This document shows positions 32,747-57,639 of a stretch of DNA of 61,818 nt, one piece after another. The notes under the pieces were generated by a model. That model worked only from the letters and a program-made list of their open reading frames with translations, searched no databases and was not told where the DNA came from. The translations under genes were made by a program, and so were the position numbers. Each line of letters begins with the position of its first letter. The stretch's first letter is position 1. The stretch is from Pseudomonas phage Itty13. The stretch lies in the sequence record MW460249.1; one strand, 5' to 3'.

Positions 32747-33012
32747 TGAAGCATCTCCCACACTCGCCGGGCGTGCGCCGACTTGAACCAGCGAGCGACC
32801 AGCAAGGTGACGCCGCATCGCTTGCAGCTCCAGCGCATCTCCTCGCCGATGGTCAGTGGCTCGCCGCCGGTGATGAGCTGGACGCGGATTTCGCGCTCCT
32901 CTCGGAGCTGATGGCGATGAAAGCCCAGGCGGCAGGCCAGCAGCCCGCTCCTACGCGAAAAGCGCTGGGCAATCCCCCACGCTGGTGGCCAGATTTCACG
33001 TAGGAACGTCAA
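32743..33012 (-). CDS. Hypothetical small protein with CxxC motif (89 aa, TTG start)
   Basis: High GC3. The TTG start overlaps the GIY-YIG stop (TTGA) and the stop overlaps the TerL GTG, so the three genes are translationally coupled. Confidence 0.35.
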   Translation of the reverse strand: MTFLREIWPPAWGIAQRFSRRSGLLACRLGFHRHQLREEREIRVQLITGGEPLTIGEEMRWSCKRCGVTLLVARWFKSAHARRVWEMLQ

Positions 33013-33521
33013 GACACCACCATGACGGCAGTGTTTCGCCGCTTCAGCTCGGCGATCAGCTCCTCGTCGGTGAACGTCTTCAGCATCTGCTGGCGGACGC
33101 CGTGGCTGCGATCAGGGTGCGCGGTTTCCGATGCGTTCAGCAGGCGCCCCTCGAAGCGCCACATCCAGAACTGCTCGCGGGCGTGCAGGAACAGGGCGTC
33201 GATCCTGCGCTCCACCACCGTGAACAGGAAGGCATCTTCGCCGTGCTCGTCCCATGCCTGCTGGAGCAGGGTGGACGAATGATCTCCACGGCGCAGTTCC
33301 CCTTTGTGCGCAGAGAAGCGCTGCTTCGCATTCCTCGTCTGTCCCACATATGCCTGAGCCGTTGGCTTGCAGATGATCAGGTATACGTCGCCAGTAGGAG
33401 CCGGCTCCTCTCGTTTATTCAGCCTGCCGTAGCCGTACTTCTCTTGCCACTCTCGCTCAATTCTCTCGTGATCATGCCTGTTCTTATGCCGGCGTCGCCA
33501 TCTCGGGGTTAGCTCGATCAT
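33009..33521 (-). CDS. GIY-YIG family endonuclease (homing-endonuclease-like) between terS and terL
   Basis: ATG at 33521 with RBS AGGGGG. GIY-YIG motif (GDVYLIICKPTAQAYVGQTRNAKQRFSAHKGELRRG...). Locally lower GC at the 5' end. Confidence 0.7.
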   Translation of the reverse strand: MIELTPRWRRRHKNRHDHERIEREWQEKYGYGRLNKREEPAPTGDVYLIICKPTAQAYVGQTRNAKQRFSAHKGELRRGDHSSTLLQQAWDEHGEDAFLFTVVERRIDALFLHAREQFWMWRFEGRLLNASETAHPDRSHGVRQQMLKTFTDEELIAELKRRNTAVMVVS

Positions 33522-34267
33522 TGCTCGCCCCCTGGCTTCAGCGTGGCGCCGGAGACCTGTTGCAGCAGCAGTGCAATCGGGTTCTCGGCGTCGCCCTTCA
33601 GGGTCAGCTTGTCGTTGAACATGCCCAGGTGGCGCGCGACGTTCTCCAGGGCCTTGCCCTGATCCTGCATTTTCACCTCCAGGCCTTCCTTCGTGACCTT
33701 CACGCCGGCGTAGAGCGCTCGGGCTGACGGGCCGAGGTGGCGGGTGTCGGCCACGAACACATCGCCATGGCCCTCGCCGAAGCACTTCGGGCACCTGGGA
33801 TGCGGCGGCAGGGTCGGGTCGAAGCCGTATCCGCCCTCGTCGCTGGGCGGCTCGCGGTCATCCTTCGCGGCGTTGTCGCAAGCGCGCTCGTACTCGGCCT
33901 CGTCCTTCCAGTGGTAGGCGTGGTCCCGGCCATAGCAATGCCGGCAGCAGACGCGGCGGTGCTGGATCAGCTCGTTCGGGTCGGCGGTGGCGATCTCCCA
34001 CCAGCGCTGGAGCACCATCTCTTGCGTGATCTGCGTCCGTGCAGACAGGTCCTTGCGCGCTTCGGCGATGGCCTGGGCGATTTCAGGTTTTTTCAACAGC
34101 TCGTCGCCGATCTGACCGGCGGTCTTGGCGCTGTATTTCGCGCGGATGGCCGCCTGAGTGGCGTTCAGGTCAACGAGGTACTCCTCGACGAAACGCTGTT
34201 GCTTCGGCGTGAGTGGGCGTGTGGATTTCGTGGATGCCGCTGCATCTTGCGCGCGCTTCGTGGGCAT
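33518..34267 (-). CDS. terS: Terminase small subunit with Cys-rich insertion
   Basis: N-terminal region (LTPKQQRFVEEYLVDLNATQAAIRAKYSAKTAGQIGDELLKKPEIAQAI) matches the terminase small-subunit (Terminase_2) pattern. Head of the late minus-strand operon, with an operator motif ~60 nt upstream. Confidence 0.7.
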   Translation of the reverse strand: MPTKRAQDAAASTKSTRPLTPKQQRFVEEYLVDLNATQAAIRAKYSAKTAGQIGDELLKKPEIAQAIAEARKDLSARTQITQEMVLQRWWEIATADPNELIQHRRVCCRHCYGRDHAYHWKDEAEYERACDNAAKDDREPPSDEGGYGFDPTLPPHPRCPKCFGEGHGDVFVADTRHLGPSARALYAGVKVTKEGLEVKMQDQGKALENVARHLGMFNDKLTLKGDAENPIALLLQQVSGATLKPGGEQ

Positions 34268-34356: not shown

Positions 34357-34656
34357 GTGCAAACGGCTATCGAGTTCACCGTGGTGGAGATGGGGAACGG
34401 GGTTTTCCGGTTCCAAGACACCGAGCGGATCACAGGGGAGCCCCAGGTTCCCCCCGACGCGGTCGAGGTTGACCTGGGATATGTGGGCTGGCGTGGCGCT
34501 CTTGAAGATGCCTGTCGCTTGGCCGGAGTGGAACTGTACGATGTGTCGCTGTGGAAAGCCTACGTGTGGTCGAGAGCTGGCGCGGTCGCGCATGTGATAG
34601 CGTTGCGCTCTGACTGCACGCCCCCGCCGGGGGATCGCCTGTCTGATACGAAGTGA
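34357..34656 (+). CDS. Hypothetical protein (99 aa, GTG start)
   Basis: RBS GGAGCGG. An operator motif abuts the RBS. Moderate GC3. Sits at the edge of the ORF-free structured region. Confidence 0.4.
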   Translation: MQTAIEFTVVEMGNGVFRFQDTERITGEPQVPPDAVEVDLGYVGWRGALEDACRLAGVELYDVSLWKAYVWSRAGAVAHVIALRSDCTPPPGDRLSDTK

Positions 34657-34859
34657 TCGCCCATTGTGAGCTGGATCACTGATAAGTCAGGCGCCGGCCC
34701 TCGACCTCTGGCCATGATTGCCGGCGTCAACCTCTAGAATTTCAAGGGCGGCTTACCCGCCAGCATGCCCTTGCGCCGATGGCGGGCAATTCCACGTCGT
34801 TACTCCTTGGCGCTTCCTTCGCCTCAGAGCCGGCCCCCGGAGTGAGTTGACGGGGATTA

Positions 34860-34960
34860 GGCGCCCCACCGTGGGATCGAACCACGGTCTCCACGGCTCG
34901 CGGCATTCAATTGCGCAGCACTTACGCAACATCCTGACACTACCCTTCGCTCCGCATCCT
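34860..34960 (-). ncRNA. tRNA-like element 1 (T-arm CGTGG-TTCGATC-CCACG plus acceptor-like 3' strand); not a canonical tRNA
   Basis: The minus strand reads ...GACCGTGGTTCGATCCCACGGTGGGGCGCC.... I could not find a matching 5' acceptor strand or anticodon arm. Coordinates are approximate. Confidence 0.25.
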
Positions 34961-35157
34961 TCCGCCGCTGTGCAAGTTCGGCGGCGATCCTCGGCGCTCC
35001 GGCTCGTGGTGTCCTGACCAACTGGACGAGTGGGGTACATCTGCATGGGAGTGGTGACGGCAGGGGCCAGTCGCCGGCGTCGTTGAACCCTCCACCCTTG
35101 CGGGCTTCATTGGAGTCTTGCCTGCCCCGCGTCGGTGCCCGCCTGCATGCAGCACCG

Positions 35158-35215
35158 TCACCACTCCGATGCAGCCTGGGCGGGTGACATGGCTGGGGTC
35201 GCCCAGGTGATCGGG
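35158..35215 (+). repeat. Structured repeat copy A (CCGATGCAGCC - hairpin CCTGGGCG/CGCCCAGG - TGATCGGG)
   Basis: Outer stem TCCGAT/ATCGGG encloses an inner 8-bp hairpin. One of three copies; see findings. Confidence 0.5.
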
Positions 35216-35335
35216 ATGCTGGTTCGTTGGCGGCTACGTGCTCCTTCGGCCTGCGCCCTCTGAAAGGTTCTGCGGCAGGCGACCCATTACCAAGCTCAGT
35301 TTCGACGAACCTGCATCGGGGAAGGCAATGAGGCC

Positions 35336-35445
35336 GGGGTCGAACCGGCGACCTGCATGGGAATGAGCGTTCGCGTTCATGACCGCTTGCGCTCGCTGCT
35401 CTACCGCGCTGAGCTACCCATTGCCTTCTCCGATGCAGCCTGCGC
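35336..35445 (-). ncRNA. tRNA-like element 2: cloverleaf-like with 10-bp terminal stem, D-arm, T-arm and a ~47-nt insert in place of the anticodon arm
   Basis: Minus strand: GAAGGCAATG-GG-TA-GCTC-AGCGCGGTA-GAGC-A-[47 nt]-GCCGG-TTCGACC-CCGGC-CT-CATTGCCTTC. The terminal stem is GAAGGCAATG / CATTGCCTTC. D- and T-arms are canonical; the central region is too long for a standard tRNA. Confidence 0.3.
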
Positions 35446-35492
35446 TACAGATTTGCAGGGACATCGGGCCGTCTCTCCGGCTGTCACGCCTA
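35423..35492 (+). repeat. Structured repeat copy B (CCGATGCAGCC - hairpin CCTGC/GCAGG - GACATCGGG CCGTCTCTCCGGCTGTC)
   Basis: Same conserved flanks as copies A and C, with a different but still self-complementary inner stem. Shares the 3' tail with copy C. Confidence 0.5.
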
Positions 35493-35727
35493 GGTTTCAG
35501 GTCTGCTTGTTGGACCGGCGTTCCGCAACACTCTCCCCGTGACCCTTGGGGGCGGCCCTATCCAGCATTGGGGACCGCAGAAAGCACCTCATGGGTGGCT
35601 GGCTTTCAGACTTCCGGCTTTCGCCATGTTCTGCATTGGAAAGAGGGAACCTGACAGCTATGGCGCACTGCGTCCGGCCGTTCGCATTGCTCGTGCGCCC
35701 TGCTCAGCTTTTTGCACGGGCCGCCCT

Positions 35728-35798
35728 CTTTCCGATGCAGCCTCCCGTTCTCCGCCAGGAGCCGTGGGAGGTGATCGGGCCGTCTCTCCGGCTGTCCG
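35728..35798 (+). repeat. Structured repeat copy C (CCGATGCAGCC - hairpin CCTCCC/GGGAGG - TGATCGGG CCGTCTCTCCGGCTGTC)
   Basis: Same conserved flanks as copies A and B; the inner stem covaries. Confidence 0.5.
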
Positions 35799-35869
35799 CC
35801 CGTCTTTCCAGGCTGTACTGGTCCAGCAGGTGAGCTGGTGGAGCGAAGTATCTGCCAGCCCGATACAGA

Positions 35870-35945
35870 TTTGCAAATTTAAATACTACCGTTCGTCGGG
35901 TTTCTACTTCTTATGATTGCGTTAGTTCTAACGCTAACCTAAGAT
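35870..35945 (+). promoter_or_regulatory. AT-rich early promoter/operator region with palindromes (ATTTGCAAAT, GCGTTAG-TTC-TAACGC)
   Basis: Local GC drop. Inverted repeats lie just upstream of the first early plus-strand gene. Confidence 0.35.
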
Positions 35946-36528: not shown

Positions 36529-36544
36529 CCGGGAGGGCAAGACG

Positions 36545-36709
36545 ATGAACGCAGCACTGGCCAGACTTCAAAACAAACGCGCTTGGATGCTTCGCGACAT
36601 GCTTTCGAACAGATGGCACGGCTTCAGCTTTGCCGGCCACCCGTGGGCGAAGCAAATTCGCGCGATGCATGACGAGGCGAAATGCATCCGCGAGCATCAC
36701 GGCCGCTAA
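36545..36709 (+). CDS. Hypothetical small protein (54 aa)
   Basis: ATG with RBS GGGAGGG, inside track ORF 36452..36709. Confidence 0.45.
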   Translation: MNAALARLQNKRAWMLRDMLSNRWHGFSFAGHPWAKQIRAMHDEAKCIREHHGR

Positions 36710-36751
36710 TCAAGCCGCCCCGGTACGCCGGGGCATCACCGAGGAAAGGAC

Positions 36752-36997
36752 ATGAAAGATCACACTTCGATTCACCGCCAAGCCAAGGCCGAGGCATCCC
36801 GAATTGCTGATCACGCGGCGGCCACCAAGGGCGGCCCGTATATCGCCGCCAACAAGATCATGGCTCGCCGGGCCACCAAAGGGGCCAAGGCGGCATTGAT
36901 CGCGGCCATGACTGTAGGCGCCCTTTGCGAACGTGGACTGGCCGATGCAGCCGAGCAGTTGACGAAAGAGCTGGCCATGCTGGCAGCCGAGCACTAA
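36752..36997 (+). CDS. Hypothetical protein (81 aa)
   Basis: RBS GAGGAAAGG then ATG. Ala-rich helical product. Confidence 0.5.
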   Translation: MKDHTSIHRQAKAEASRIADHAAATKGGPYIAANKIMARRATKGAKAALIAAMTVGALCERGLADAAEQLTKELAMLAAEH

Positions 36998-37043
36998 CCC
37001 GCCGCCCTGCCGGTAGCAGGGCATCACCAGAGGAGACACCGAC

Positions 37044-37139
37044 ATGCAAAGCCTTCGTGACCGCTACGAAATCTACGTCCGCTGCGCCACCGACCTCGGC
37101 TGGACGGTGAAGACCTTCGAGGAGTGGCTGAACTCTTAA
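37044..37139 (+). CDS. Hypothetical small ORF (31 aa)
   Basis: RBS GAGGAG then ATG; product MQSLRDRYEIYVRCATDLGWTVKTFEEWLNS. Below the ORF-track size cut-off. Confidence 0.3.
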   Translation: MQSLRDRYEIYVRCATDLGWTVKTFEEWLNS

Positions 37140-56212: not shown

Positions 56213-56446
56213 TTGTCGTCTGCTCATTCCATCCAGTCCGGTGATCGCCTGCTCCGCCTGCGCGACGTGAAGACGAAGACCGGGCTGGGCTCCTCTACGA
56301 TCTACCGCTACATCCAGGCCGGCACCTTCCCGGCGCCGGTCAAGATCGGCGGCTTTACCGCGCGCTGGCGCGAGTCTCAGGTCGAGGCGTGGATTGACGC
56401 CTTGCCGCGCCTGCGGCCGGACACGACCTCGTCCAGCGGCATCTGA
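56213..56446 (+). CDS. alpA-like: AlpA-family excisionase / transcriptional regulator (77 aa, TTG start)
   Basis: Pattern LLRLRDVKTKTGLGSSTIYRYIQAGTFPAPVKIGGFTARWRESQVEAWI matches the Phage_AlpA family. RBS AGGAGGG abuts an operator motif. 3' end is convergent with int. Confidence 0.65.
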   Translation: MSSAHSIQSGDRLLRLRDVKTKTGLGSSTIYRYIQAGTFPAPVKIGGFTARWRESQVEAWIDALPRLRPDTTSSSGI

Positions 56447-57639
56447 TCGACGATCAGCAGGTCGGCCCATTCCTGGGCCAGCTCGCGGCGGCGCGCCAGA
56501 TGCGCCGCGCGATTGTACGCCGCCTCGACTTTGTCCTTGGGCGTGTGCGCCAGCATCAGGTCGATGATGCGGCTGTCCTGGGGGTGGCGCTCGTTCATCA
56601 CCGTCGAGAACGTTGACCGCCAGCCGTGGGGTACATGGCGGTGGTGATACCCCGCCCGGTTCAGCAGATACCCCATGGCGTTCTCGCTCATCGGCTTGTG
56701 CGCGTGCCGGCCGTTCGGGAACACGAACGGGCAGCGGCCGGTCAGCGGGCGCAGCGCCTCGATCACCTCGCGGGCCTGCCGCGACAGCGGGACGAGGTGG
56801 TCGCGGGCCTCGTCGTCCTTCAGGTGCAGGGCCAGCTTCATCCGCGCCGCCGGCACGGTCCACAGGTCCTCGACATCCTCCAGCTCCTCCCATGGCGTCG
56901 TCGCCAGGGTGCCGGGGCGCAGCGCGGTCAGCGCCAGCAGCCGGATCGCCAGCTTCGTCGCCGGGTGCGCGCCCTCGCGGTCCACCTTGCGGATGATTTC
57001 GCGGGCCTGTTCGAGGTCGGTGATGGCCGGCTGCCGGCCCTTCTTCAGCGGGGCCATGGCGCCCTGGACGATGGCGGCCGGGTCGTTCTCGCCTCGGCCG
57101 GAGGCGATGGCGTAGACGAACACGGCGGACATCCGCTGCCGGATGCGCCGCGCGGTCTCCACCGCCGGCCGCTTCTCGATGGAGCGCAGGACCTTCAGCA
57201 CCATGGGCGCGGTGATCGCCTTGATCGGCAGGGCGCCCAGCTCGGGGAACACGTCGCGCTCCAGGCTGTGCAGCACGTCATAGCAGTGAACGGGCGTCCA
57301 CTTCGCCTTGTTGGCCTCGTGCCACTCGCGGGCGACCGCCTCGAAGGTGGTGCCGGCGTCGAAGATCGCGGCGGCGGCGCGCTCCTTCTTCTCCACGGAC
57401 GGGTCGCGGCCGTCGCGCAGGATCGCGCGGGCGTCGTCGCGCTTCTCGCGGGCCTGGGCCAGGGAGACCTCGGGGTATGGGCCGAAGGAAAGCAGCTTCT
57501 CCTTGCCGGCGAAGCGGTACTTCATGCGCCACAGCTTCGAGCCGTTGGGATTGAGCTGGAGGTAGAGGCCTGCGCTATCGGTCAGCTTGCGGGGCTTGTC
57601 GGTGGCCTTGGCGCGGCGAATCTCGGCATCGGTCAGCAT
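56377..57639 (-). CDS. int: Tyrosine integrase, P4-type (420 aa)
   Basis: N-terminal arm-binding region (LTDAEIRRAKATDKPRKLTDSAGLYLQLNPNGSKLWRMKYRFAGKEKLLSFGPYPEVSLAQAR) and C-terminal catalytic region (...HGWRSTFST...LAHTPKDKVEAAYNRA). Confidence 0.8.
   Translation of the reverse strand: MLTDAEIRRAKATDKPRKLTDSAGLYLQLNPNGSKLWRMKYRFAGKEKLLSFGPYPEVSLAQAREKRDDARAILRDGRDPSVEKKERAAAAIFDAGTTFEAVAREWHEANKAKWTPVHCYDVLHSLERDVFPELGALPIKAITAPMVLKVLRSIEKRPAVETARRIRQRMSAVFVYAIASGRGENDPAAIVQGAMAPLKKGRQPAITDLEQAREIIRKVDREGAHPATKLAIRLLALTALRPGTLATTPWEELEDVEDLWTVPAARMKLALHLKDDEARDHLVPLSRQAREVIEALRPLTGRCPFVFPNGRHAHKPMSENAMGYLLNRAGYHHRHVPHGWRSTFSTVMNERHPQDSRIIDLMLAHTPKDKVEAAYNRAAHLARRRELAQEWADLLIVDQMPLDEVVSGRRRGKASIHAST

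What the first reader, a model, noticed from the sequence alone, without database searches (positions are those of the whole stretch)
34860..35445. Two tRNA-like elements (TTCGATC / TTCGACC T-arms with acceptor-like stems) on the minus strand that do not complete a canonical tRNA
Element 2 (~35336-35445) has a 10-bp terminal stem GAAGGCAATG/CATTGCCTTC, a textbook D-arm (GCTC-AGCGCGGTA-GAGC), and a textbook T-arm (GCCGG-TTCGACC-CCGGC). However, about 47 nt take the place of the 17-nt anticodon arm. Element 1 (~34860-34905) has CGTGG-TTCGATC-CCACG plus GTGGGGCGCC, with no matching 5' strand found. They could be a tRNA with an unusual insert, tmRNA-like or tRNA-like structures (TLS), or duplicated 3' tRNA halves used as recombination or att cores.
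Basis: seen in the sequence. Interest (0 to 1): 0.6.

Follow-up and report, generated by a model that had tools for sequence, protein, structure and literature searches.

The report
tRNA-shaped RNAs in phage RNA cassettes
Two complete but non-decoding tRNA-shaped RNA genes sit in a 1.2-kb island of structured non-coding RNAs in a Pseudomonas phage, and one of them belongs to a widespread, unannotated family of swappable RNA cassettes held in a conserved 20-bp stem.

Summary
Both elements are real and lie on the minus strand. Element 2 (35423-35324) is a full cloverleaf body. Its acceptor stem continues into a 22-bp helix, and 42 nt replace the 17-nt anticodon arm. The whole unit (35036-34860) has a canonical acceptor stem, D arm and T arm, with 109 nt between the strands of its anticodon-like stem.

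ARAGORN in intron mode calls exactly these two in 61.8 kb and none in shuffles. Default ARAGORN and Rfam call nothing.

Neither is a decoding tRNA. The "anticodon" assigned to homologues of element 2 changes from one to the next, there is no U33, and the acceptor sequence is not conserved.

Element 2 is one cargo of a modular family in Pseudomonas phages and prophages: hairpin, CCGAUCA, hairpin, then the stem CUGCAUCGGA...UCCNAUGCAG around the cargo. I found about 150 loci and at least 26 unrelated cargos. G-U outnumbers A-C mismatches 22 to 2, and the stems show compensatory changes. The family is absent from Rfam 15 and unannotated in 21 GenBank phage records.

The most likely mechanism is inferred, not shown: host RNases excise stable small RNAs, and the tRNA shape is a scaffold or mimic that presents an invariant 30-nt arm. 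The att-core, tmRNA, YrlA and intron-tRNA readings were all rejected.

The parts
35847..35876 (-). Putative sigma-70-like promoter of the RNA island: TTGCAA, 18 nt, GATACT
   Evidence: Read from the sequence. It matches 8 of 12 positions, so it falls below the threshold of the scan. Inferred only.
35741..35792 (-). Lead-in of unit A: hairpin hp0 (GCCGGAGAGACGGC), linker CCCGAUCA, hairpin hp1 (CCUCCC...GGGAGG)
   Evidence: The same hp0-linker-hp1 order is seen in 117 distinct upstream contexts. hp1 carries a GNRA loop in 42 of them and a UUCG loop in 3.
35631..35743 (-). Unit A: conserved stem (AGG)CUGCAUCGGA...UCCAAUGCAG around cargo type A, the commonest cargo (56 loci)
   Evidence: The inner helices of cargo A covary: 8 of the 26 predicted pairs have changes on both sides.
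35442..35485 (-). Lead-in of unit B: a 23-nt repeat of the unit A box (GACAGCCGGAGAGACGGCCCGAU), followed by a partial copy of the promoter region in place of hp1
   Evidence: Direct repeats D2 and D4; sequence.
35311..35441 (-). Unit B (the finding's element 2): a 22-bp stem (35438-35417 with 35332-35311) enclosing the tRNA-shaped cargo
   Evidence: (I2). Seven stem pairs and one T-stem pair carry compensatory changes between the window lineage and the P. aeruginosa-phage lineage.
35324..35423 (-). tRNA-shaped core of unit B. It has acceptor stem CAAUGGG/CUCAUUG, U8 and A9, a D arm with A14, G15, G18, G19 and A21, a 42-nt arm in place of the anticodon arm, variable loop AGGUC, and a T arm with loop UUCGACC.
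   Evidence: ARAGORN with introns allowed; sequence.
35365..35394 (-). Near-invariant 30-nt hairpin GAGCG-CAA-GCG-GUCAUGAA-CGC-GAA-CGCUC inside the arm that replaces the anticodon stem-loop
   Evidence: An exact match, with one free position, in 20 IMG/VR contigs. In alignment A3 only two positions vary, the free one and one change in L127, while the surrounding stems covary.
35221..35311 (-). Unit E: a separate structured RNA without the conserved stem; outer stem GGUUCGU/ACGAACC
   Evidence: 84% identical to the metagenomic podovirus MW202713. Three compensatory changes in the outer stem.
35041..35215 (-). Unit C with its lead-in: CCCGAUCA, hp1 (CCUGGGCG...CGCCCAGG), then the stem CUGCAUCGGAGUGGUGACGG/CCGUCACCACUCCCAUGCAG around a cargo found only here
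   Evidence: (I1). The cargo has no homologue among the fetched loci.
34860..35036 (-). Unit D (the finding's element 1, now complete). It has a 5' half at 35036-35005, a 109-nt insert at 35004-34896, and a 3' half at 34895-34860. The 3' half is CGUGG-AGAC-CGUGG-UUCGAUC-CCACG-GUGGGGC-G-CC.
   Evidence: The only other copy is in contig L017/L190, with 3 substitutions; one of them turns a C-G pair of the anticodon-like stem into U-G.
34660..34859 (-). 3' tail of the island, with a candidate pseudoknot at 34786-34744. It runs towards the 3' end of a weak plus-strand ORF (34357-34656).
   Evidence: Read. 100% identical in L017. No intrinsic terminator found. Not followed up.

Best explanation
The finding covers two genes for tRNA-shaped, non-decoding small RNAs. 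They lie in a 1.2-kb island of at least five structured non-coding RNA modules on the minus strand, about 35880-34660, in a temperate Pseudomonas phage.

Unit B is one cargo of a modular RNA cassette family specific to Pseudomonas phages. Each cassette has a variable hairpin, a single-stranded CCGAUCA, a second hairpin that often carries a GNRA or UUCG loop, and then a stem of about 20 bp with a conserved base (CUGCAUCGGA / UCCNAUGCAG). The stem has recurrent mismatches at layers 7 and 10 and encloses an exchangeable structured cargo. Unit D is a free-standing tRNA-shaped RNA immediately 3' of such a cassette.

Proposed mechanism (inferred, not shown):
- The island or host operon is transcribed as one RNA.
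- The two-turn stems act as processing stalks for a host double-strand RNase. RNase III is the obvious candidate, by analogy with rRNA and T7 early-mRNA processing.
- The tRNA-shaped bodies are recognised by host tRNA enzymes (RNase P, 3' trimming, CCA addition, elbow modifications). This would yield stable small RNAs.
- The tRNA shape serves as a stabilising scaffold or mimic, not as an adaptor.
- The working part of unit B is the invariant 30-nt hairpin that replaces the anticodon stem-loop. It presumably binds a host protein or RNA.

Cargo swapping between otherwise identical phage contexts suggests accessory functions such as host manipulation or anti-defence.
For: Shown:
- Canonical tRNA elbow positions in both units, with ARAGORN intron-mode calls only here.
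- The cloverleaf is energetically equal to the MFE for unit B.
- Unit B recurs in P. aeruginosa phages Shamal and Haboob and in 20 IMG/VR contigs. It has 8 compensated pairs and a near-invariant inner arm.
- The scaffold pattern hits more than 120 viral contigs and 27 Pseudomonadaceae genomes with real stems. Hits outside that family lack the stem.
- There are 93 unique units and at least 26 unrelated cargo clusters.
- The median stem is 20 bp. Its variable layers hold 398 Watson-Crick, 22 G-U and 2 A-C pairs, so selection acts on the RNA of this strand.
- The most conserved base covaries: CUGCAU/AUGCAG, CUGUAU/AUACAG, CCGCAU/AUGCGG.
- hp1 carries RNA-type tetraloops, and cargo A covaries internally.
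- Units are co-oriented with annotated genes in Shamal, Haboob, Aurca01 and MD8. A crude ORF test gave about 185 same-strand flanks against 41 opposite.
- Units are interleaved with genuine tRNA genes on one strand in L048, and one follows a tRNA-Gly in L169.
- The slot between MD8 gp49 and gp48, with the same upstream hairpins and stem, holds a different cargo from the tRNA-shaped one in Shamal and Haboob. L017 carries unit B where the window carries unit C.
- The window and Shamal share only one protein, a DnaC-like loader. Any factor that reads the stem is therefore most likely from the host.
Against: - There are no expression or end-mapping data, so processing by RNase III or RNase P is analogy only.
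- A 5' leader fully paired to the 3' trailer, as in unit B, is not a typical RNase P substrate.
- The D arm and the inner arm of unit B never vary, so they give no covariation support. Unit B covariation rests on only two lineages.
- Unit D has a single, nearly identical relative.
- No target for the invariant loop was found in the window.
- No terminator or firm promoter delimits the island.
- The strict sequence conservation of the stem base is more than RNase III is known to need. It may instead reflect recombination between cassettes or an unknown binding factor.
Confidence: 0.5

Rival explanations
1. They are functional tRNA genes interrupted by introns in the anticodon loop, and are spliced to give decoding tRNAs.
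For: ARAGORN in intron mode reports tRNA-Leu(caa) with a 25-nt intron and tRNA-Ser(cga) with a 102-nt intron.
Against: - The called anticodon of unit B homologues changes between Trp, Ser, Leu, Gly and Pyl, and the intron position moves.
- The modelled loops (CG-CAA-GC, CG-CGA-GC) lack U33.
- 25-109 nt is far below the roughly 200 nt of self-splicing group I introns, the only tRNA introns known in bacteria (general knowledge).
- The acceptor sequence is completely different in the two unit B lineages.
- No CCA is encoded, and in unit B the acceptor helix runs on for 15 more layers.
Confidence: 0.04
2. They are members of a known tRNA-mimic family: bacterial Y RNA (YrlA), tmRNA, or a C4-type antisense RNA.
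For: - There is a tRNA-like elbow plus a long 5'/3' stem with an unpaired C, and a modular conserved-stem, variable-module logic like that of Y RNAs (PMC4201824).
- Phage C4 RNA is cut out by RNase P (my own knowledge).
Against: - Rfam 15 gives no match, even at E<=10.
- YrlA is circularly permuted: the T arm precedes the D arm and the Ro stem replaces the anticodon stem. Here the order is canonical and the long stem extends the acceptor stem.
- The GNCGAAN0-1G motif is absent.
- None of the 47 ORFs scanned against Pfam, including all those over 400 aa except the portal and large-terminase genes, has a TROVE domain.
- ARAGORN finds no tmRNA.
Confidence: 0.05
3. The inverted repeats act at the DNA level, as a MITE-like or attC-like folded-DNA recombination site or as an att core. 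On this view the tRNA likeness is a relic.
For: - About 20-bp inverted repeats flank variable inserts of 70-160 bp, with fixed mismatches, somewhat like attC sites.
- Cargo is exchanged exactly at the repeat boundaries between the window and L017.
- The window encodes an integrase.
Against: - G-U outnumbers A-C 22 to 2 on the gene-sense strand.
- GNRA and UUCG loops occur in hp1.
- Cargo helices covary, and the canonical tRNA tertiary positions are kept.
- Orientation follows transcription.
- No copy of either tRNA 3' half occurs elsewhere in the window.
- The sequence bears no resemblance to the integron R'/R'' cores.
Confidence: 0.08
4. The cassette is mainly a cis-acting operon element. Either the hp0-linker-hp1 part modifies RNA polymerase (nut/put-like antitermination, or protection of untranslated RNA from Rho), or the stem is only an mRNA processing and stability punctuation mark. 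In either case the cargo has no function of its own.
For: - Units lie between genes in early-left operons downstream of the repressor gene.
- The window island lies just downstream of a promoter-like site.
- A hairpin, a single-stranded box, then another hairpin recalls the boxB/boxA order.
- A 1.2-kb untranslated RNA needs protection from Rho.
Against: - Cargo structures are themselves under selection: there is covariation in cargos A and B, and a near-invariant 30-nt arm.
- Units occur in tandem and inside tRNA gene arrays.
- HK022 put is a roughly 70-nt two-stem RNA with no enclosed cargo.
- No boxA-like sequence is present.
Confidence: 0.15

Closest known systems
Bacterial Y RNAs of the YrlA type (Chen et al. 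2014, PMC4201824)
   Same: - It is a non-decoding RNA with tRNA-like D and T arms that keep the elbow-forming nucleotides.
- A long stem is formed by the 5' and 3' ends and contains an unpaired C.
- It also occurs in phages.
- The logic is modular: a conserved stem with a variable effector module.
   Different: - YrlA is permuted: T arm, then a closed "acceptor" hairpin, then D arm, with the Ro-binding stem in place of the anticodon stem.
- YrlA lies within 4 kb of an rsr (TROVE) gene and carries GNCGAAN0-1G.
- Here the arm order is canonical and the stem extends the acceptor stem. No TROVE gene was found among the ORFs scanned, and there is no Rfam match.
tmRNA (including two-piece forms)
   Same: An acceptor stem and T arm of tRNA type, with a large insertion between the halves (unit D has 109 nt).
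   Different: - The D arm here is intact.
- There is no G3:U70 alanine identity, no tag ORF and no encoded CCA.
- ARAGORN and Rfam do not call it.
Stable non-tRNA RNAs encoded within phage tRNA clusters (T4 species 1 and 2 RNAs) and the RNase P-processed C4 RNA of P1/P7 (my own knowledge)
   Same: Small structured RNAs co-transcribed with, or shaped like, tRNAs and released by tRNA-processing enzymes. In L048 the cassettes are interleaved with real tRNA genes.
   Different: - There is no sequence or model similarity. The Rfam C4 model hits only a distant site in L119.
- None of these RNAs has a conserved enclosing stem with exchangeable cargo.
RNase III processing stalks of rRNA operons and T7 early mRNAs
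   Same: Two-turn helices (median 20 bp) formed by sequences flanking a structured RNA, with conserved internal mismatches, repeated along one transcript.
   Different: Cleavage has not been shown here. The base of the stem is conserved in sequence far beyond what RNase III is known to require. The stem is also preceded by a fixed hairpin-linker-hairpin lead-in.
Engineered tRNA scaffolds for RNA expression (anticodon arm replaced by a cargo RNA; my own knowledge)
   Same: Units B and D keep the acceptor, D and T arms and replace the anticodon stem-loop with another structured RNA. This is the design used to stabilise recombinant RNAs in bacteria.
   Different: This is a natural element and its function is unknown.

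Membership tests
Canonical (decoding) tRNA | 7-bp acceptor stem, D arm and T arm with the conserved elbow nucleotides (U8, A14, G18, G19, A21, G53, U54, U55, C56, A58, C61) | tested here: met
   Both units. Unit D has an A1.C72 mismatch.
Canonical (decoding) tRNA | 5-bp anticodon stem with a 7-nt loop carrying U33, and an anticodon conserved among homologues | tested here: not met
   42 nt (unit B) and 109 nt (unit D) lie in its place. The loops ARAGORN models lack U33, and the called anticodon differs among homologues.
Canonical (decoding) tRNA | Detected by standard tRNA finders or the Rfam tRNA model | tested here: not met
   Default ARAGORN finds 0 genes. Rfam finds nothing at gathering score or at E<=10.
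Canonical (decoding) tRNA | Free 3' end (encoded or added CCA) and aminoacylation | not testable with these tools
   No CCA is encoded: unit B has C-CUU, paired to the leader, and unit D has G-CCU. The acceptor sequence is not conserved between the unit B lineages.
Bacterial tRNA with a group I intron | Self-splicing intron of about 200 nt or more with a P1-P9 core in the anticodon loop | tested here: not met
   The inserts are 25-109 nt. There is no Rfam intron match.
tmRNA | tRNA-Ala-like domain with G3:U70, a reduced D arm, and a tag-peptide ORF with pseudoknots | tested here: not met
   ARAGORN finds no tmRNA at default settings; only sub-threshold noise appears at -ps70. The acceptor pairs are C-G and A-U.
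YrlA / bacterial Y RNA | Permuted tRNA-like domain (T arm 5' of D arm, closed acceptor-like hairpin), with the terminal stem replacing the anticodon stem | tested here: not met
   The order here is acceptor, D, arm, T, acceptor, and the terminal stem extends the acceptor stem.
YrlA / bacterial Y RNA | Encoded within a few kb of an Rsr/Ro60 (TROVE) gene; GNCGAAN0-1G motif near the 5' end | tested here: not met
   No TROVE domain appears in the 47 ORFs scanned against Pfam, which do not cover every ORF of the window. The motif is AUCGGAG, not GNCGAA.
YrlA / bacterial Y RNA | Binds Ro60 | not testable with these tools
   Needs biochemistry.
RNase III processing stalk | About two helical turns of double-stranded RNA formed by flanking sequences | tested here: met
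   The median stem is 20 bp, range 9-24, with RNA-type pair statistics.
RNase III processing stalk | Staggered cleavage by RNase III in vivo or in vitro | not testable with these tools
   No transcript-end data are available.
Integron attC / folded-DNA recombination site | R''/R' cores RYYYAAC and GTTRRRY, extrahelical bases, and an adjacent IntI integrase | tested here: not met
   The cores are CUGCAU/AUGCAG. Pfam places the only integrase found in the general phage-integrase family, with an arm-DNA-binding domain; I read it as P4-type, not IntI. It lies 21 kb away.

The most novel reading that the evidence does not exclude
Pseudomonas phages carry a previously undescribed system of exchangeable RNA cassettes. 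A fixed lead-in (hairpin, CCGAUCA, hairpin) and a sequence-conserved 20-bp handle are read by a host factor. They present any of dozens of unrelated structured cargos, one of which is a tRNA mimic with an invariant effector arm. The cargos would be trans-acting small RNAs that manipulate the host or counter its defences. The logic would resemble Y RNAs (conserved stem, variable module), and the evolutionary behaviour would resemble anti-defence gene hotspots.
Probability: 0.3. Interest if true: 0.8.

Novelty: new variant of a known kind. Interest (0 to 1): 0.62.

Why it matters
If the cassettes are processed into stable RNAs, they form a large, unannotated layer of phage-encoded small RNAs. 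They occur in well-studied P. aeruginosa temperate phages such as MD8, phi2, JBD88b and YMC11/02/R656. The hypervariable cargo in a fixed slot is the pattern seen at arms-race loci.

The tRNA-shaped members would be natural examples of the "tRNA scaffold" design, and a new topology of tRNA mimicry distinct from YrlA, tmRNA and viral TLS.

In practical terms, standard annotation (default ARAGORN, Rfam) misses them completely. In 19 of the 21 matching GenBank records nothing is annotated over the scaffold. Some records place a short hypothetical ORF over it or over unit B.

Tried and rejected
- **Default ARAGORN and Rfam** (gathering score and E<=10) gave nothing. Rfam on 13 related loci gave nothing at the units.
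- **YrlA / Y RNA idea:** rejected on topology after reading Chen et al. 2014, and because no TROVE ORF was found.
- **CsrA/Rsm sponge idea:** GGA is enriched only in the unit D insert (6 against 2.5 expected) and not across the island. No CsrA ORF was found among those scanned. Kept only as a weak lead.
- **Antisense target of the invariant loop:** no good complement in the window.
- **Type I-F CRISPR repeat mimicry (RNA anti-CRISPR):** the resemblance of one lead-in variant disappears in the other variants (read).
- **Sigma-54 promoter in hp1:** the spacing is off by one and the motif is absent from other variants.
- **Alternative pairing of CCGAU with AUCGG:** the U varies without compensation, so it is unsupported.
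- **Shared phage protein that could bind the handle:** only a DnaC-like loader is shared with Shamal.
- **More distant homologues:** the metagenome scan returned only the L017 contig plus one chance hit. Unit D and its insert occur only in L017.
- **tRNA ancestry** from tRNAs in the fetched loci: inconclusive.
- **Literature searches** found no description. The catalogue of 10,006 unnamed viral candidate RNAs (PMC10690425) may include the family, but this could not be checked.
- **Burkholderia phage DC1**, whose structural genes are related, has protein genes and no RNA island next to terS.
Full report
**Setting**

The window is a 65% G+C temperate phage genome, or something close to one. Its terminase, portal and capsid genes resemble those of Bcep22/PEp14-type podoviruses. 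Every other nucleotide match is to a Pseudomonas phage. It encodes:
- a small terminase subunit at 33518-34267(-);
- an integrase at 56377-57639(-);
- a cI-type HTH protein, Erf and RdgC;
- a DnaC-like loader;
- lysis genes.

The finding lies in a gap of about 1.3 kb (34600-35940) with no convincing ORF. The gap separates the minus-strand packaging genes from a plus-strand gene block.

**Checking the observation**

However, the stem is 22 layers long (35438-35417 with 35332-35311). It is a 7-bp acceptor stem, CAAUGGG/CUCAUUG, that continues without a break into CUGCAUCGGAGAAGG/CCUUCCCCGAUGCAG. Next come U8 and A9, the D arm, a 42-nt region, a 5-nt variable loop (AGGUC) and the T arm.

Element 1 is the 3' part of a second complete cloverleaf body. 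Its 5' half is ACCCCAC-UC-GUCC-AGUUGGUCA-GGAC-A-CCACG at 35036-35005. The 3' strand of the anticodon-like stem (CGUGG) follows 109 nt later, and then AGAC, the T arm and GUGGGGC-G-CC.

Default ARAGORN calls nothing. Rfam 15 gives nothing at gathering score, and nothing relevant at E<=10. With introns of 0-200 nt allowed, ARAGORN calls exactly these two loci in 61.8 kb and none in ten shuffled windows. It made one poor false call in 1.59 Mb of related loci.

Unit B folds at -68.8 kcal/mol (z = -4.3). Forcing the cloverleaf costs 0.1 kcal/mol for unit B and 2.2 kcal/mol for unit D.

**Why they are not decoding tRNAs**

- The anticodon that ARAGORN assigns to homologues of unit B is Trp, Ser, Leu, Gly or Pyl depending on the copy, and the "intron" position moves.
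- The modelled loops lack U33.
- The inserts are far too short for the self-splicing introns known in bacterial tRNAs.
- The acceptor sequence is entirely different in the two lineages of unit B.
- No CCA is encoded.
- Neither 3' half recurs in the window, so the att-core idea fails.

**The surroundings are an RNA island**

Three long hairpins share the same base, (AGG)CUGCAUCGGA...UCCNAUGCAG:
- unit A, 35743-35631;
- unit B, 35441-35311;
- unit C, 35177-35041.

Units A and C are each preceded by a small hairpin (hp0), a single-stranded CCCGAUCA, and a second hairpin (hp1) whose 3' arm abuts the long stem. hp1 covaries: CCUCCC/GGGAGG in unit A, CCUGGGCG/CGCCCAGG in unit C, and CCUGGC/GCCAGG in P. 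aeruginosa phages. Unit B has the hp0 box and the start of the linker, but a partial copy of the promoter region stands where hp1 would be.

Between units B and C lies unit E (35311-35221). It is a different structured RNA that is shared with a metagenomic podovirus, with three compensatory changes in its outer stem. Unit D starts 4 nt after the stem of unit C.

A promoter-like TTGCAA-N18-GATACT lies at 35876-35847. No intrinsic terminator is predicted in the island.

**Related sequences**

Unit B is 87% identical to intergenic DNA of the lambdoid P. aeruginosa phages Shamal and Haboob. There it lies in the leftward early operon downstream of the cI-like gene, on the sense strand. Its inner hairpin is found exactly in 20 IMG/VR contigs.

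On nine distinct sequences, the proposed structure pairs 95.9% of cells. Eight pairs carry changes on both sides, seven in the long stem and one in the T stem. No shuffle out of 500 reached this, and no slid register came close. This evidence has limits. The D arm and the 30-nt inner hairpin GAGCG-CAA-GCG-GUCAUGAA-CGC-GAA-CGCUC almost never vary, and the covariation comes from only two lineages.

Unit D occurs only in one other contig (L017/L190). That contig is a close relative of the window. It has three substitutions in unit D, one of which keeps a stem pair as U-G.

**A cassette family**

It also hits 57 genome contigs. Of those, 27 have a real stem, and all but one (a Geminicoccus MAG) are Pseudomonas or Azomonas. 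The hits in other phyla lack the stem, and their number is about what chance predicts (the chance estimate is my own).

Key numbers for the family:

| Measure | Value |
|---|---|
| Unique units | 93 |
| Unrelated cargo clusters | at least 26 |
| Median stem length | 20 bp |
| Variable layers: Watson-Crick / G-U / A-C | 398 / 22 / 2 |
| Layer 7 pairs (C-G, C.A, C.C) | 27, 11, 6 |
| Layer 10 pairs (A-U, A.C) | 21, 20 |
| Unit length | 72-164 nt |
| Loci with two distinct units | about 20 of 150 (the window has three) |

The G-U excess points to selection on RNA of this strand. The most conserved part of the stem also covaries: CUGUAU/AUACAG, and CCGCAU/AUGCGG in L092. hp1 carries a GNRA loop in 42 of 117 distinct contexts and a UUCG loop in 3. 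The commonest cargo, type A (the cargo of the window's unit A), has its own covarying helices.

In L048 two units sit between genuine tRNA-Met/Asn and tRNA-Trp/Ser genes on one strand. In L169 a unit follows a tRNA-Gly by 8 nt.

Twenty-one GenBank records of P. aeruginosa temperate phages carry the lead-in and handle, almost always with nothing annotated there. In MD8 the slot between gp49 and gp48 holds a cargo different from the tRNA-shaped one in Shamal and Haboob. L017 carries unit B where the window carries unit C. Cargos are therefore exchanged at the conserved boundaries.

**Mechanism**

Shown:
- These are RNA-level structures under selection, transcribed in the sense of the surrounding genes.
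- They are modular and specific to Pseudomonas phages.
- Two of them have a tRNA shape with intact elbow nucleotides but no anticodon loop.

Inferred:
- The two-turn stems are processing stalks for a host double-strand RNase.
- The tRNA-shaped bodies are handled by host tRNA enzymes and become stable small RNAs.
- The near-invariant arm of unit B is the effector.
- The cargos are accessory functions.

A host factor, rather than a phage factor, is likely to read the handle. The window and Shamal share only a DnaC-like protein.

I put 0.5 on this overall picture. The structural part is much more certain than the processing and effector parts.

**Comparison with known families**

The closest functional analogue is the bacterial Y RNA YrlA, but its tRNA-like domain is permuted and it is tied to Ro60. 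tmRNA, group I intron tRNAs, C4 RNA and HK022 put RNA each fail a defining feature. Stable RNAs in the T4 tRNA cluster and engineered tRNA scaffolds are analogies from my own knowledge.

I found no description of this scaffold in Rfam 15 or in the searchable literature.

**Verdict**

The surrounding cassette family is the more interesting result.

I rate it a new variant of a known kind (tRNA mimics and phage small RNAs), with interest 0.62. I give a 0.3 chance that it represents a new modular RNA system.

Noticed in passing
window 33009-33794 (-): An ORF with a GIY-YIG homing-endonuclease domain (residues about 137-210) lies between the small and large terminase genes. Its first part overlaps terS, so the true start is probably further downstream.
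   Followed up: partly
window about 36530-37083: Pieces of 100-300 nt are 79-98% identical to otherwise unrelated P. aeruginosa phages (PAK_P3, BUCT566, PBPA162, PCCM_PaP007), where they are annotated as hypothetical proteins. This may be a small mobile gene or module boundary.
   Followed up: no
window 34744-34786 (-): A candidate H-type pseudoknot lies in the 3' tail of the RNA island. CCCGCCA pairs with UGGCGGG, and the loop AAGGGC is complementary to GCCCUU just downstream.
   Followed up: no
window 35221-35311 (-); L003 1572-1658: Unit E is a structured RNA without the conserved handle. It is shared with the metagenomic podovirus MW202713, downstream of an antitermination-protein gene. 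The core CGAAACUGAGCUUGGUAAUGGGU is invariant, and the outer stem has three compensatory changes.
   Followed up: partly
window 34896-35004 (-): The 109-nt insert of unit D contains 6 GGA motifs against 2.5 expected (1 of 300 shuffles reached this), and none on the other strand. This is a weak hint of RsmA/CsrA binding. There is no such enrichment elsewhere in the island.
   Followed up: partly
window 35766-35779 (-): The linker plus the hp1 arm of unit A reads CCCGAUCACCUCCC. This contains GAUCACCUCC, the 3' end of 16S rRNA as I remember it. Other units have CCUGG or CCUCG here instead, so it may be chance.
   Followed up: no
window 35425-35441 (-) and family-wide: The 5' strand AGGCUGCAUCGGAGUG resembles the 5' ends of vertebrate Y RNAs (GGCUGGUCCGAGUG, from memory), including an unpaired C in the helix. 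No Ro60 gene was found among the ORFs scanned.
   Followed up: partly
L080 and L092, just 3' of cargo-A units: A conserved hairpin and a strong Shine-Dalgarno sequence are followed by a two-codon ORF, AUG-AAG-UAG.
   Followed up: no
L119 902-1083 and 2984-3164: Two copies each of C4 antisense RNA, its a1/b1 targets and isrK (Rfam, above gathering score) lie about 4-6 kb from the cassette in this prophage contig.
   Followed up: no
window 35443-35457 and 35861-35875; 35463-35485 and 35774-35796: Part of the promoter region and the 23-nt hp0 box upstream of unit A are duplicated upstream of unit B, where the hp1 hairpin is missing. This looks like a scar of cassette rearrangement.
   Followed up: partly
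L002 (phage Haboob) 1-1717: A reverse transcriptase gene and a four-helix-bundle protein gene lie about 1.3-3 kb downstream of the tRNA-shaped unit. I read them as a diversity-generating retroelement, from memory. They are not annotated in the corresponding part of Shamal, so they are probably unrelated to the unit.
   Followed up: no
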